From a virus (Duplodnaviria; Heunggongvirae; Uroviricota; Caudoviricetes), in the IMG/VR virus record IMGVR_UViG_2534682222_000016: a stretch of DNA of 6,700 nucleotides; one strand, 5' to 3'. Below the pieces are notes generated by a model. That model was given only the letters and a program-made list of their open reading frames with translations. It did not search any database and was not told the origin of the DNA. Shown here in pieces: positions 4,416 through 6,478 of the stretch (position 1 is the first letter of the stretch; each line of letters starts with the position of its first letter). Made by a program: the position numbers and the translations under genes.

Positions 4416-4600
4416 TGTGCACATCCTTTTGGCATCAGACGTAAACGAGCCAGCATTGAAACAATGCATATTTTATTTAATAGCTCCCGTTCTTGTTTTC
4501 TCTTGTTAATGGCATCTTCAGTAAATACAGGGTTACTGATAGTGACACCAATTTCAAAACAACCTTCAGACGTATTAACGTTTGGTAATAACGTTTTCAT
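4412..4600 (-). CDS. dicB: DicB cell-division inhibitor (MinC-dependent), 62 aa
   Basis: Internal start giving MKTLLPNVNTSEGCFEIGVTISNPVFTEDAINKRKQERELLNKICIVSMLARLRLMPKGCAQ, which I recognise as DicB. GAGGA lies 7 nt upstream of the ATG. Located immediately downstream of DicF as in the Qin dicB operon. Confidence 0.8.
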   Translation of the reverse strand: MKTLLPNVNTSEGCFEIGVTISNPVFTEDAINKRKQERELLNKICIVSMLARLRLMPKGCAQ

Positions 4601-4769
4601 TATCGCGTCCTCAACAATGAATTTTGTGATGCAGTGCCTGGTGCCTCCAGGTGACGTTAACCAGTTAACAATTAACGCCGGATACAGAGAATCCACCCAT
4701 AACACTGTTTTTGGTTTTAACTGTTCCGCGTGCGCTTAGCCGCATTCACCGCATCACAAAATTCACTTT

Positions 4770-4813
4770 AAAAACGGCGGCAGAGCAGTCACGGAGTAAA
4801 ACTGATACCGCCA
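4770..4813 (-). terminator. Intrinsic-terminator-like hairpin plus U-tract forming the DicF 3' end
   Basis: On the minus strand, GGCGG...(nested CAGU/ACUG)...GCCGCCG is followed by UUUUU (plus-strand AAAAA at 4770..4774). dicB follows downstream, so termination must be partial. Confidence 0.55.
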
Positions 4814-4827
4814 AACGTCACCAGAAA
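4772..4827 (-). ncRNA. dicF: DicF small regulatory RNA (Hfq-dependent antisense sRNA targeting ftsZ and other mRNAs)
   Basis: Reverse complement of 4775..4827 reads TTTCTGGTGACGTTTGGCGGTATCAGTTTTACTCCGTGACTGCTCTGCCGCCG followed by TTTTT. This matches the 53-nt DicF sequence as I remember it, and it sits between the ydfA-side genes and dicB. Confidence 0.85.
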
Positions 4828-5102
4828 ATTGATAACAGAGGGCGTTGCAGCGGGGTTGTCACTTAAGCGTATGGTCAACCTGACAACTCGGTGTCCTCAA
4901 CGGGGAAGGAATAACCCCGCCATACTTACCGCCGCGCCATTTCGCGGGTTGCCACAACCGGAAGCGCACGGTCGAATTAAATTTAACGACACCGTACAGT
5001 GAGACGAACTTCGCCGTGCGCTTTCGTGTTGTGTGCCTGCTTTTAACCACGTCAGGCGAGGTGGTATCCTTCTTATTCCGAATAACCAAGAAGGAAATCT
5101 AT

Positions 5103-5303
5103 ATGACTAAAGAAGAATTTGTCTCTTATATTTTTGATAAAACGGTTGAAATGTATGCCGCTACTTACGGGTCCTGTAATCCTCTGAATAAACCAGAGGG
5201 GAAAGATGATTTCGACAAAATTTACCGCTTCTTGGAGGACCGCTATATCAAAAGGTTAGAGGACGCAGGGATCAAATCCCCAGTGAAGTCACCATTGTCC
5301 TGA
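5103..5303 (+). CDS. Candidate small protein (66 aa), function unknown, antisense to the dicB-operon transcript
   Basis: ATG at 5103 is preceded by AAGGA (5091..5095) at 7-nt spacing. The ORF encodes a charged, helix-like sequence (MTKEEFVSYIFDKTVEMYAATYG...). Its 3' end overlaps the 3' end of the convergent 121-aa ORF by 32 nt. No homolog recognised; it may be a chance ORF. Confidence 0.35.
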   Translation: MTKEEFVSYIFDKTVEMYAATYGSCNPLNKPEGKDDFDKIYRFLEDRYIKRLEDAGIKSPVKSPLS

Positions 5304-5637
5304 GAACTTGCAGGACGTCATGATCGTAACTTCCATCCAAACCGCGACGGCAAATTGCTTCTCGTATTACCGGAAGCAGTTCGCTGGAAATCTCGGTGCA
5401 TATTTCACCTGCTAATACGCCTGGCTCAAGTGAGAATATTGGTGAACTTACGGTCTTGGTCTCGACAGTTTCAGAGTCAGTGCCAACATTATAAAGCTCA
5501 ACGAAAGCGGTCTTGATTTTCCGGGCCAGATCTTTTGCTGGCTCGCTTGCAATATCTTTCCCGATTTCTCGCAGCACAGAATGCAATGTATGAGCTGCTG
5601 TTTTCTGTACATCAGACGGTAAATCTTTAAATTCCAT
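5272..5637 (-). CDS. Hypothetical protein, 121 aa (position corresponds to ydfB/ydfC of Qin)
   Basis: Minus-strand ORF with codon composition typical of coding sequence. GAGG lies 6 nt upstream of the ATG at 5637. An alternative start at 5649 overlaps the ydfA stop as TGATG. Family assignment is by position only. Confidence 0.6.
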   Translation of the reverse strand: MEFKDLPSDVQKTAAHTLHSVLREIGKDIASEPAKDLARKIKTAFVELYNVGTDSETVETKTVSSPIFSLEPGVLAGEICTEISSELLPVIREAICRRGLDGSYDHDVLQVLRTMVTSLGI

Positions 5638-5993: not shown

Positions 5994-6401
5994 TTATTGA
6001 TGCTTGTTGCGTTTGCGAGCCTCTAATAGCTCGGTGAACAGGCGATTAAAATTCTCAACGCGGGCGCGGAGTTCGCTGAGTTGTGCTTGTTGCTCTGATT
6101 TAGGAAGTGCGCGATACAAACGCAGCATCTCTAACTCATCTTCCGATAAGTCTAAGGCACTATCGAGTGAAACAGGGGGAGCTGGTGTTTTGTCCTCGTC
6201 GCCAAACAGTATCCAGGTTGGTGAACATTGCAATACCTCGGCGAGGCGATGCAAATTTTGCCCACGCGGGGCTGTATGGTCACTTTCCCATAATGAAATT
6301 GATGAGCCAGATACGCCAGCAGCTTTGCTTAAACCGTTTTGACTTAAGCCTACCTGCTTACGTCTTTCTCTAATGCGTTGACCTAAAGTTTTCTCGTTCA
6401 T
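5994..6401 (-). CDS. dicA: DicA-like XRE-family HTH repressor (prophage immunity repressor), 135 aa
   Basis: Start at the internal Met gives an N-terminal HTH (MNEKTLGQRIRERRKQVGLSQNGLSKAAGVSGSSISLWE...) followed by LQCSPTWILFGDEDK, which I recognise as DicA/RacR-family. It is divergent from a Cro-like gene. An alternative upstream ATG at 6452 has no RBS and would overlap the rightward promoter. Confidence 0.85.
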   Translation of the reverse strand: MNEKTLGQRIRERRKQVGLSQNGLSKAAGVSGSSISLWESDHTAPRGQNLHRLAEVLQCSPTWILFGDEDKTPAPPVSLDSALDLSEDELEMLRLYRALPKSEQQAQLSELRARVENFNRLFTELLEARKRNKHQ

Positions 6402-6478
6402 ATTTAGATATCTTAATAACCCTTGACTTGAGATTCCTTGAGTGATTAGCATTGAGAAAACTCAATATTGGAGGTGCG
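6402..6478. promoter_or_regulatory. Divergent promoter/operator region of the dicA-dicC immunity switch
   Basis: Rightward candidate promoter: -35 TTGACT (6423..6428), 18-nt spacer, -10 TAGCAT (6447..6452). The inverted repeat TTGAG-AAAA-CTCAA (6452..6465) followed by TATTGG overlaps the -10 and start region. TTGAG half-sites also occur at 6428 and 6438. GGAGG (6470..6474) is the RBS for the plus-strand gene. Confidence 0.6.

What the first reader, a model, noticed from the sequence alone, without database searches (positions are those of the whole stretch)
4900..5021. Hairpin-dense, ORF-free leader upstream of DicF
The roughly 440 nt between the 121-aa gene and DicF has no convincing sense-strand ORF but contains several inverted repeats: CGGGG/CCCCG (4901..4919), CCGCG/CGCGG (4932..4947), an 8-bp stem GCGCACGG/CCGTGCGC (4964..4971 / 5014..5021), and enclosed within it a 20-nt near-palindrome GTCGAATTAAATTTAACGAC (4971..4990). 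DicF is known to be released from a polycistronic precursor by RNase III and RNase E, so these are candidate processing or stability elements. The near-palindrome could alternatively be a protein-binding site.
Basis: partly seen in the sequence, partly recalled or inferred. Interest (0 to 1): 0.4.

Follow-up and report, generated by a model that had tools for sequence, protein, structure and literature searches.

The report
DicF precursor leader with processing hairpins
This stretch is the untranslated leader of the prophage small RNA DicF: its long hairpin matches the RNase III cutting site already mapped in E. coli K-12, and the two short hairpins belong to a conserved three-hairpin RNA module whose role is still unknown.

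Summary
All four inverted repeats are present at the stated coordinates. They lie on the minus strand, in the early-left (dicBF) operon of an mEp460-like lambdoid prophage, just upstream of DicF (4775-4827).

- **H1, the long hairpin (4951-5036).** The 8-bp stem is the core of a 24-bp imperfect hairpin. Its 3' arm is identical to E. coli K-12 Qin. Two published K-12 measurements (a 190-nt DicF species; RNase III cut at +813/814) both map to window 4959-4965, inside that arm.
- **Near-palindrome.** It is only the top of H1 and is not conserved as a palindrome.
- **The two 5-bp hairpins.** CCGCG/CGCGG and CGGGG/CCCCG are H2 and H3 of a three-stem-loop module (4840-4956). The module also occurs in lambdoid pL leaders and in the P1/P7 Pban leader.
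  - 10 of 25 pairs show compensatory changes.
  - 96% of unique copies are followed by an intrinsic terminator, and the terminator sequence varies (here it is DicF).
  - The module has no Rfam family and its function is unknown.

The processing reading is right for H1 and already published. The module is a modest new lead. The "ORF-free" interval also carries a 66-aa gene on the opposite strand (5103-5303).

The parts
4951..5036 (-). H1: 24-bp imperfect hairpin (helices of 2+6+2+10+4 bp with one-base bulges), the inferred RNase III substrate. 5' arm 5036-5010, 3' arm 4976-4951.
   Evidence: Fold -38.6 kcal/mol, z -4.83. The K-12 orthologue folds the same way (-35.8, z -3.17). 99% of cells are paired in 87 distinct homologues. 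Hairpins with the same position and architecture but different upper stems occur in Salmonella, F1055, cdtI, 2H10, L188 and L200.
4959..4965 (-). Inferred RNase III cleavage position on the H1 3' arm, which becomes the 5' end of the 190-nt pre-DicF.
   Evidence: Transferred from K-12: 190 nt back from the DicF 3' end (4775) gives 4964. +813/814 counted from the dicBp start (TTGACC-17-TAATCT, L001 3608-3580) gives 4959-4965. Not mapped in this phage.
4971..4990 (-). GUCG/CGAC can form a 3-4 bp cap.
   Evidence: Pairs 99-116, 100-115 and 101-114 of alignment A2 are kept in 86-87 of 87 sequences. The AT core differs between variants.
4992..5009 (-). Hypervariable 5' half of the H1 apical loop.
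   Evidence: At least 8 unalignable variants occur among loci that are otherwise 98-100% identical downstream.
4840..4956 (-). Three-stem-loop module (H2-H3-H4 plus conserved single-stranded motifs).
   Evidence: Covariance model R1 scores 146 bits here, with one copy per locus. 10 of 25 pairs show changes on both sides, reached by 0 of 500 shuffles. No Rfam family matches.
4932..4947 (-). H2: CCGCG/CGCGG, 5 bp (6 bp in P1).
   Evidence: 99.3% paired; one G-C to A-U double change (L200) and U-G variants.
4889..4931 (-).
   Evidence: Outer helix is CGGC/GCCG in P7-type copies, seen at fixed offsets without alignment. Inner stem is re-made as CUGGG/CCCAG, CUGGGG/CUCCAG, CGAGG/CCUCG, CCAGGUG/CACCUGG and UGGUG/CACCA.
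4855..4887 (-). H4: 7-bp stem GUUGUCA/UGACAAC with the invariant loop AGGUUGACCAU. It is separated from H3 by one nucleotide (4888).
   Evidence: At fixed offsets there are 13 distinct arm pairs, including 6 different fully complementary stems: GUUGCCA, GUAACCA, GCUACCA, GUUACCA, AUCACCA and AUUGUCA/UGGCAAU.
4842..4852 (-). 5' strand of helix H5, which pairs with 4747-4757 and brackets DicF.
   Evidence: RNAalifold consensus; 99.1% paired; G-C/G-U variation at one pair. The published 72-nt DicF 3' end made by RNase III would be at about 4756.
4747..4757 (-). 3' strand of helix H5.
   Evidence: As above.
4775..4827 (-). DicF sRNA (53 nt). The RNase E cut that makes its 5' end lies between 4828 and 4827 (UCAAU|UUUCUGG). 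The terminator U-tract is 4774-4770.
   Evidence: Rfam RF00039, 72.5 bits. The RNase E requirement was shown in K-12.
5103..5303 (+). Context: a 66-aa gene on the opposite strand inside the 'leader'. It converges on and overlaps the 3' end of the 121-aa gene (5272-5637, minus strand).
   Evidence: Annotated as WP_000159335 in E. coli CP53. PHROG 34441, E = 1.5e-50.

Best explanation
The interval is the 5' part of the untranslated pre-DicF leader, transcribed on the minus strand from the repressor-controlled early-left promoter of an mEp460-like lambdoid prophage. Three steps are proposed.

1. H1 (4951-5036) folds into a roughly 24-bp duplex that RNase III cuts, on its 3' arm at about 4959-4965. 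This separates the upstream mRNA (DUF1391 gene and 121-aa gene) from a roughly 190-nt RNA. That RNA has a 5'-monophosphate and about 12-17 unpaired nucleotides, followed by the three-stem-loop module (H2, H3, H4; 4840-4956) and DicF.
2. RNase E then cuts the AU-rich single strand at 4828/4827 and releases the 53-nt DicF, which ends at its own intrinsic terminator.
3. On read-through transcripts, RNase III can also cut the helix that brackets DicF (4852-4842 with 4757-4747).

Shown in K-12 by others: RNase III dependence of the 190-nt species, RNase E dependence of the 53-nt species, and the two distances. Shown here: orthology, the structures, their conservation and covariation, and where the published distances fall. 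Inferred: that this copy is cut at the same place, and that the 5'-monophosphate helps RNase E.

The module is a genuine conserved RNA structure that travels with an adjacent terminator. What it does is not known. My leading guess is that it shapes the fate of the 190-nt RNA, through stability or the choice between termination and read-through.
For: - **Context.** DicF, dicB, ydfD, exonuclease, xis and int lie downstream; a DUF1391 gene, a dicA-like repressor and a cro-like gene lie upstream.
- **Orthology.** Window 4771-5044 aligns with the K-12 ydfC-dicF spacer, and the sequence from the H1 3' arm to DicF differs at 2 positions.
- **Published processing.** The 190-nt DicF species needs RNase III, the 53-nt species needs RNase E, and primer extension places the cut at 813/814.
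- **Spacing check.** The supplement's 206-bp RT-PCR product reproduces window spacing 4990-4785.
- **Numbering check.** The K-12 dicBp promoter sits where numbering from +1 requires, so 813/814 maps to window 4959-4965 and 190 nt from the 3' end maps to 4964.
- **H1 stability.** H1 has 24 bp and z = -4.83.
- **H1 variation.** The differences between the K-12 and window 5' arms are C-to-U changes opposite G, or fall at unpaired positions. G-U variants reach 66 of 87 sequences, whereas A-C mismatches stay at 1-3.
- **H1 in other lineages.** A hairpin of the same architecture sits at the same place with different, complementary upper stems in Salmonella, F1055, cdtI, 2H10, L145, L188 and L200.
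- **H1 absent where not needed.** H1 is absent in P1 and P7, where the promoter lies about 35 nt upstream of the module.
- **H1 linked to DicF.** 103 of 104 unique DicF loci carry the leader through at least 5026.
- **Module.** 10 of 25 pairs have compensatory changes, reached by 0 of 500 shuffles. Six different complementary H4 stems were found without any alignment. 185 of 192 unique copies are followed by an intrinsic terminator, with at least 8 hairpin types.
Against: - The cleavage site has not been mapped in this phage. The green-marked nucleotide in the paper's figure is not readable in the held text, and Faubladier et al. 1990 could not be read. The position therefore carries about ±5 nt and rests on two distances.
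- The same paper gives 1,146 nt for the ydfABC-dicF transcript, which does not fit numbering in which DicF ends at about +1003. The numbering origin is my inference.
- Within the 87 E. coli-type sequences, H1 shows no change on both sides of a pair. The covariation for H1 comes from comparing lineages whose upper stems may not be homologous position by position.
- The one Salmonella DicF locus examined has no module, so the module is probably not required to make DicF.
- The module on its own does not fold better than shuffled sequence (z = -0.74).
- Alignment A4 was fitted to the model, which favours the inner H3 pairs.
Confidence: 0.8

Rival explanations
1. The three-stem-loop module, which includes the reader's CCGCG and CGGGG hairpins, is a cis-acting RNA that acts on RNA polymerase at the terminator just downstream. 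On this reading it works like the HK022 put RNAs and sets how much transcription stops at DicF and how much continues into dicB, exo, xis and int. H1 and RNase III would then be secondary.
For: - H3 and H4 are two adjacent stem-loops separated by one nucleotide.
- The module lies near the 5' end of early transcripts: about 35 nt after the P1 Pban start, and after pL in cdtI and 2H10.
- An intrinsic terminator follows in 185 of 192 unique copies.
- No N-like arginine-rich protein follows it in cdtI, 2H10 or F1055.
- It carries invariant unpaired motifs, as expected for a recognition surface.
- putL is likewise followed by terminator-like sequence.
Against: - There is no sequence similarity to HK022 putL or putR beyond a 9-mer (E about 0.9).
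- The covariance model finds nothing in the HK022 immunity region and only one copy per phage locus, with no twin on the pR side within the flanks.
- There is no functional data of any kind.
- K-12 Northern blots show that much transcription does stop at the DicF terminator.
Confidence: 0.12
2. The near-palindrome and the stems act at the DNA level, as an operator or promoter element. One candidate target is the plus-strand 66-aa gene that starts at 5103.
For: A plus-strand gene starts 113 bp to the right of the palindrome. On the plus strand the region folds as well as on the minus strand (z = -4.91 against -4.83).
Against: - The palindrome is imperfect and its left half is replaced in homologues.
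- H1 and the conserved 3' half are kept in K-12-type loci, which lack the 66-aa gene and have ydfC instead.
- No sigma-70-like promoter is found upstream of 5103 on the plus strand.
- The common U-G pairs of the minus-strand RNA would be A-C mismatches on the plus strand (66 of 87 sequences at one pair).
Confidence: 0.04
3. The small hairpins have no function of their own. They are chance inverted repeats in GC-rich sequence that spread with DicF.
For: The 5-bp hairpins are not significantly enriched. The module alone has z = -0.74. Within E. coli DicF loci the leader is nearly invariant, which says nothing either way.
Against: Compensatory changes occur in all four helices across P1, P7, lambdoid and Salmonella-phage copies. 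The module is retained next to at least 8 unrelated terminators.
Confidence: 0.04

Closest known systems
RNase III site upstream of dicF in the E. coli K-12 Qin dicBF operon (Faubladier, Cam and Bouché 1990; Ragunathan et al. 2023, PMC10448788)
   Same: It is the orthologous sequence. The 3' arm, the module and DicF differ at 2 positions, the 24-bp hairpin architecture is the same, and the distance to DicF is the same. The published 190-nt / +813-814 end falls in the 3' arm.
   Different: The 5' arm has 4 substitutions, all wobble-compatible or at unpaired positions. The apical loop is replaced. The upstream gene is a 121-aa protein plus an antisense 66-aa gene instead of ydfC. No experiment has been done on this copy.
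'dicF-like region' in the Pban leader of phages P1 and P7 (annotation in NC_005856)
   Same: It contains the same three-stem-loop module (R1 scores 88.6 and 98.1 bits), transcribed in the same sense from a repressor-controlled early promoter and followed by an intrinsic terminator.
   Different: There is no H1 hairpin, because the promoter is about 35 nt upstream. The terminator hairpin is not DicF (no RF00039 hit). tRNA genes and ban lie downstream.
RNase III sites in the phage lambda pL transcript (N leader, sib)
   Same: A long imperfect hairpin in an early-left transcript is cut by host RNase III, changing the fate of the flanking RNA (established knowledge, not tested here).
   Different: There is no sequence relationship. 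Here the product is an sRNA precursor, not control of N translation or int decay. No N gene or nut site was found.
HK022 put RNAs (factor-independent antiterminator RNAs; PMC9378689)
   Same: Two adjacent stem-loops lie in an early leader just before terminators.
   Different: There is no sequence or covariance-model similarity, a single copy per phage, and activity has not been tested.
Stem-loop-guided RNase E processing of 3'-UTR-derived sRNAs (MicL, CpxQ; reviewed in PMC9438474)
   Same: The sRNA is released by RNase E from a longer mRNA, and structured elements flank the cut.
   Different: Here an RNase III step comes first, and the flanking structure is a conserved module shared with loci that carry other sRNA or terminator hairpins.

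Membership tests
DicF RNA (Rfam RF00039), for the flanking sRNA | Covariance-model score above the gathering threshold (48 bits) | tested here: met
   72.5 bits, full length, 4826-4775 on the minus strand.
RNase III processing hairpin of the dicBF transcript | Sequence orthology to the K-12 ydfC-dicF spacer | tested here: met
   4771-5044 aligns with K-12. The 3' arm is identical and the 5' arm matches at 20 of 24 positions. 103 of 104 unique DicF loci carry it.
RNase III processing hairpin of the dicBF transcript | Double-stranded stem of about two helical turns (20 bp or more) | tested here: met
   24 bp with one-base bulges, -38.6 kcal/mol, z -4.83.
RNase III processing hairpin of the dicBF transcript | The published cleavage position falls in the stem | tested here: met
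   190 nt from the DicF 3' end gives 4964. +813/814 from the dicBp start gives 4959-4965. Both are in the 3' arm. Uncertainty is about ±5 nt.
RNase III processing hairpin of the dicBF transcript | RNase III-dependent cleavage of this RNA | not testable with these tools
   Shown only for K-12, by Northern blot and primer extension in wild type versus rnc.
RNase III processing hairpin of the dicBF transcript | Pairing maintained by compensatory change | tested here: inconclusive
   No change on both sides among 87 E. coli-type sequences. Across lineages the upper stem is replaced by other complementary sequences, for example GAGAGCAUUG/CAGUGCUCUC and GCAUUCC/GGAAUGC.
HK022 put antiterminator RNA | Sequence and structure similarity to putL/putR | tested here: not met
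   Only a 9-nt match (E about 0.9). Model R1 finds nothing in the HK022 immunity region.
HK022 put antiterminator RNA | Copies downstream of both early promoters | tested here: not met
   Exactly one copy per locus in 52 sources with flanks of up to 14 kb. The pR side was not covered in every locus.
HK022 put antiterminator RNA | Two stem-loops separated by one nucleotide, upstream of terminators | tested here: met
   H3 and H4 are separated by position 4888. A terminator follows in 185 of 192 unique copies.
HK022 put antiterminator RNA | Terminator read-through that depends on the RNA and on the beta-prime zinc-binding domain | not testable with these tools
   No experiment is available.
Lambda-type nut site | boxA/boxB followed by an N gene with an arginine-rich motif | tested here: not met
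   The boxA-like UGCUCUC in cdtI and F1055 is the 3' arm of the H1-type hairpin. The first proteins after the module are not arginine-rich.
Protein-coding sequence | A reading frame conserved among homologues | tested here: not met
   Length mod 3 classes are 49/33/5; open frames vary from 44 to 65 codons. No CDS is annotated in RefSeq.
Any Rfam 15 family, for 4828-5045 | A match near a gathering score | tested here: not met
   Only c4-a1b1 at 9.3 bits, E = 8.3. Nothing at E of 1 or below in the whole window apart from DicF and STnc100.

The most novel reading that the evidence does not exclude
The three-stem-loop module (4840-4956) is an uncatalogued RNA family supported by covariation. It forms a cassette: a long RNase III hairpin, the module, then an interchangeable sRNA with an intrinsic terminator. 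The cassette occurs in early operons of lambdoid phages and of P1/P7. The most novel reading is that the module is a factor-independent RNA acting on RNA polymerase to tune termination against read-through at the adjacent terminator. That would make it a second kind of put-like element, or alternatively an autonomous RNA of about 137 nt left over after DicF is released.
Probability: 0.15. Interest if true: 0.7.

Novelty: already known. Interest (0 to 1): 0.3.

Why it matters
For the finding as written, it adds little. It re-identifies from sequence alone the RNase III and RNase E maturation pathway of DicF that was established in K-12, and it shows that a functional-looking mEp460-type phage carries the same leader.

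What could matter is the by-product. The part of the 190-nt precursor that nobody has assigned a role to is a conserved, covarying three-hairpin RNA. It is shared with P1/P7 and many lambdoid phages, is nearly always followed by a terminator or sRNA of variable sequence, and is missing from Rfam. If it controls termination or sRNA output, it would explain how phages without an N gene read through the DicF-type terminator, and how toxic genes such as dicB and kil are kept low.

Tried and rejected
- **HK022 put homology.** I located putL in the HK022 genome and compared it by BLAST and with covariance model R1. There was no similarity.
- **nut/N reading.** The boxA-like motif turned out to be a hairpin arm, and no N-like protein follows.
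- **tRNA-like or known RNA family.** ARAGORN and Rfam found nothing.
- **Coding potential of the 76-aa minus-strand and 57-aa plus-strand ORFs.** No frame is conserved.
- **Plus-strand promoter for the 66-aa gene.** None was found by consensus scan.
- **Module in K-12 Rac next to the sRNA KilS.** Absent.
- **Literature search for the module's sequence motifs.** No paper found.
- **Original papers.** Faubladier 1990 and 1994 and the P1 genome paper are not held.
- **Genome-wide RNase III maps** (PMC6212723, PMC5371410). They cite DicF only.
- **Alternative long-range pairing** of the H1 3' arm with the second AAGCGCACG at 4729-4737. It is possible (9 bp), but it does not match the published 72-nt end. 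I left it as an observation.
- **Attenuator idea.** The module's GGCGGUA could compete for the terminator 3' strand (MFE). This is kinetically implausible and is not conserved in P1 or F1055.
- **Stx2c phage record.** It carries no annotation.

Full report
**Context.** The window is the early-left arm of a lambdoid prophage.
- It is 100% identical to E. coli CP53 and 99.3% identical to phage mEp460_ev081 over the region tested.
- On the minus strand, in order of transcription, lie: a dicA/cI-like repressor (5994-6452), a DUF1391 (ydfA-like) gene, a 121-aa gene (5272-5637), a 445-nt gap, DicF (4827-4775; Rfam RF00039, 72.5 bits), dicB, ydfD, an exonuclease, xis and int.
- The finding (4900-5021) sits in the gap.

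**The observation.**
- All four inverted repeats are at the stated coordinates.
- The 5-bp GC hairpins are not beyond chance on their own: 3 against 0.88 expected, with 8% of shuffles reaching 3.
- 8-bp inverted repeats are enriched: 5 against 0.22 expected, 0.2% of shuffles.
- The 8-bp stem extends. Folded alone, 4950-5036(-) forms a 24-bp hairpin (helices of 2+6+2+10+4 bp with single-base bulges) of -38.6 kcal/mol, z = -4.83. I call this H1.
- The near-palindrome is the top of H1. It consists of GUCG/CGAC plus an AT core whose centre is offset by one base.
- The sense strand has no conserved reading frame.
- The "ORF-free" gap does contain an annotated 66-aa gene on the opposite strand at 5103-5303 (PHROG 34441).

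**What H1 is.**
- *Orthology.* Window 4771-5044 is the orthologue of the ydfC-dicF spacer of K-12 Qin. From the H1 3' arm to the DicF terminator the two differ at 2 positions. A match to window 4700-5400 (leader, DicF and flanks) is present in 4590 of 5426 complete E. coli genomes. Of 104 unique DicF loci collected from genomes and IMG/VR, 103 carry the leader through at least position 5026.
- *Published experiments.* Ragunathan et al. 2023 (PMC10448788) confirmed Faubladier et al. 1990: a 190-nt DicF species needs RNase III, the 53-nt DicF needs RNase E, and primer extension puts the RNase III cut between positions 813 and 814.
- *First mapping.* 190 nt back from the DicF 3' end (4775) is 4964. 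The paper's 206-bp RT-PCR product (primer GTCGTTAAATTT... to the DicF probe) reproduces the window spacing 4990-4785, so the lengths are the same in both loci.
- *Second mapping.* The K-12 dicBp promoter (TTGACC, 17 nt, TAATCT; L001 3608-3580) puts +1 at about L001 3572-3578. Position 813/814 from there is L001 2760-2766, which is window 4959-4965.
- *Conclusion.* Both distances fall in the 3' arm of H1.
- *Caveats.* I could not read the marked nucleotide or the 1990 paper. The paper's "1,146-nt" transcript length does not fit this numbering.

**Evidence that H1 pairing is selected.**
- Among 87 distinct E. coli-type sequences the stem is 99% paired, and no pair changes on both sides.
- Variation is mostly C-to-U opposite G. 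One pair is U-G in 66 sequences and C-G in 21. A-C mismatches stay at 1-3 sequences. This fits an RNA on the minus strand.
- Conservation changes sharply inside the apical loop. Downstream of about 4991 the loci are 98-100% identical. Positions 4992-5009 are unalignable, with at least 8 variants. The 5' arm is again similar although its surroundings are not.
- Other lineages keep a hairpin of the same position and architecture with different, complementary upper stems:
  - the Salmonella DicF locus L005 (about 23 bp);
  - Salmonella phage F1055 (CACAACGA/UCGUUGUG plus GAGAGCAUUG/CAGUGCUCUC);
  - cdtI and 2H10 (UGAGGGCAU/GUGCUCUCA);
  - L145, L188 and L200.
- P1 and P7 lack H1. In those phages the promoter lies about 35 nt upstream of the next element.

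**What the two short hairpins are.**
- CCGCG/CGCGG (H2) and CGGGG/CCCCG (inner H3) belong to a unit at 4840-4956 made of H2, H3 and H4. H3 has an outer CGGU/ACCG helix. H4 is GUUGUCA/UGACAAC, 4855-4887.
- Invariant unpaired motifs are GGCGGUAAGUAUGGC, the H4 loop AGGUUGACCAU, and a CCCCRCYRCAAC tail.
- The same unit occurs in:
  - the "dicF-like region" of the P1 and P7 Pban leader;
  - phages cdtI, 2H10 and the Stx2c phages, where it lies after pL;
  - Salmonella phage F1055 and phage pPE4.
  In each it is in the sense of early transcription.
- A covariance model built from 26 sequences finds one copy per locus. It finds none in HK022, none in the Salmonella DicF locus and none in K-12 Rac.
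- On 56 distinct sequences, 94% of cells pair and 10 of 25 pairs have changes on both sides (53 cells). Shuffles average 4.0 pairs and none of 500 reaches the observed value. Slid controls give at most 4 pairs.
- Because that alignment was fitted to the model, I repeated the count at fixed offsets without any alignment.
  - The 7-bp H4 stem has 13 distinct arm pairs, including six different fully complementary sequences.
  - The outer H3 helix is CGGC/GCCG in P7-type copies.
  - The inner H3 stem is re-made many times.
- The module has no Rfam family.

**Architecture around the module.**
- Of 192 unique module-bearing sequences, 185 have an intrinsic terminator within 155 nt downstream. The median distance from H4 to the U-tract is 62 nt. 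The terminators fall into at least 8 unrelated hairpin types, of which DicF is one.
- Most lambdoid copies have an H1-type hairpin abutting the module upstream.
- The recurrent cassette is therefore: a long RNase III-type hairpin, the three-stem-loop module, then a variable sRNA with its terminator.
- In P1 the distance from the Pban start to the terminator is about 178 nt, close to the 190-nt K-12 species.

**Mechanism, with status of each step.**
1. RNase III cuts H1. Shown in K-12, inferred here. This yields a 5'-monophosphate RNA with about 12-17 unpaired nucleotides, then the module and DicF.
2. RNase E cuts at UCAAU|UUUCUGG (4828/4827) to give DicF. Shown in K-12. That the 5'-monophosphate promotes this step is my inference.
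3. A 10-bp helix (4852-4842 with 4757-4747) brackets DicF. The published 72-nt RNase III 3' end (about 4756) lies in it.

The role of the module is open. It is probably not needed to make DicF, since the one Salmonella locus examined has DicF without it. Its constant association with a terminator and its position near a 5' end suggest control of stability or of termination against read-through.

**Rivals.**
- *A put-like antiterminator.* Two stem-loops one nucleotide apart before a terminator, and no N gene, fit this idea. It fails the similarity and two-copy tests and has no functional support.
- *A DNA-level binding site.* This is contradicted by the non-conserved palindrome, by retention in loci that lack the plus-strand gene, and by the absence of a promoter.
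- *Chance hairpins.* This is contradicted by the covariation.

**Verdict.** It is unproven for the two short hairpins and wrong for the palindrome. Novelty: already known. The conserved module is a modest, testable side lead.

Noticed in passing
window 5103-5303 (+), 5067-5095: A 66-aa gene (PHROG 34441, function unknown; annotated as WP_000159335 in E. coli CP53) lies on the opposite strand inside the DicF 'leader'. It converges on the 121-aa gene and overlaps its 3' end by about 30 nt. Its Shine-Dalgarno sequence AAGAAGGA (5088-5095) is the 3' arm of a perfect 8-bp hairpin with 5067-5074. The operon transcript is fully antisense to it.
   Followed up: partly
window 4842-4852 with 4747-4757 (-): A 10-bp helix brackets DicF. 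The published alternative 72-nt DicF 3' end made by RNase III would fall at about 4756, inside its 3' strand.
   Followed up: partly
window 4992-5009 (-): The 5' half of the H1 apical loop is unalignable (at least 8 variants) among DicF loci that are 98-100% identical just downstream. This is either a mosaic boundary or a diversifying loop.
   Followed up: partly
window 5016-5024 and 4729-4737 (-): AAGCGCACG occurs twice in the minus-strand RNA, so the H1 3' arm (CGUGCGCUU, 4962-4970) could alternatively pair with a site 225 nt downstream, beyond DicF.
   Followed up: no
window 4568-4777 (-): A sub-threshold Rfam match to STnc100 (34.5 bits; gathering score 47) covers the dicF-dicB spacer and the start of dicB. 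A partial STnc100 match also occurs in the P1 locus (L131 135-254).
   Followed up: no
L005 3640-3850 (Salmonella enterica CP191473): DicF (60.6 bits) is preceded directly by an H1-like hairpin of about 23 bp, with no three-hairpin module. The 3' arm of the hairpin overlaps the DicF 5' end.
   Followed up: partly
L138 1322-1335 and 1415-1428 (phage vB_Apl-pPE4): The terminator unit after the module is duplicated in tandem, upstream of a kil gene. The phage is listed under an Actinobacillus host but has an E. coli-type DicA/YdaT region.
   Followed up: no
L259 7406-7503 (E. coli K-12 Rac prophage): The annotated sRNA KilS lies upstream of kilR at the position analogous to DicF upstream of dicB, but the three-hairpin module is absent there.
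   Followed up: partly
window 4913-4920 with 4850-4857 (-): A perfect 8-bp alternative pairing, GCGGGGUU/AACCCCGC, would enclose the H3 3' strand and H4. It is less well kept in P1 and F1055 than the H3 hairpin.
   Followed up: partly
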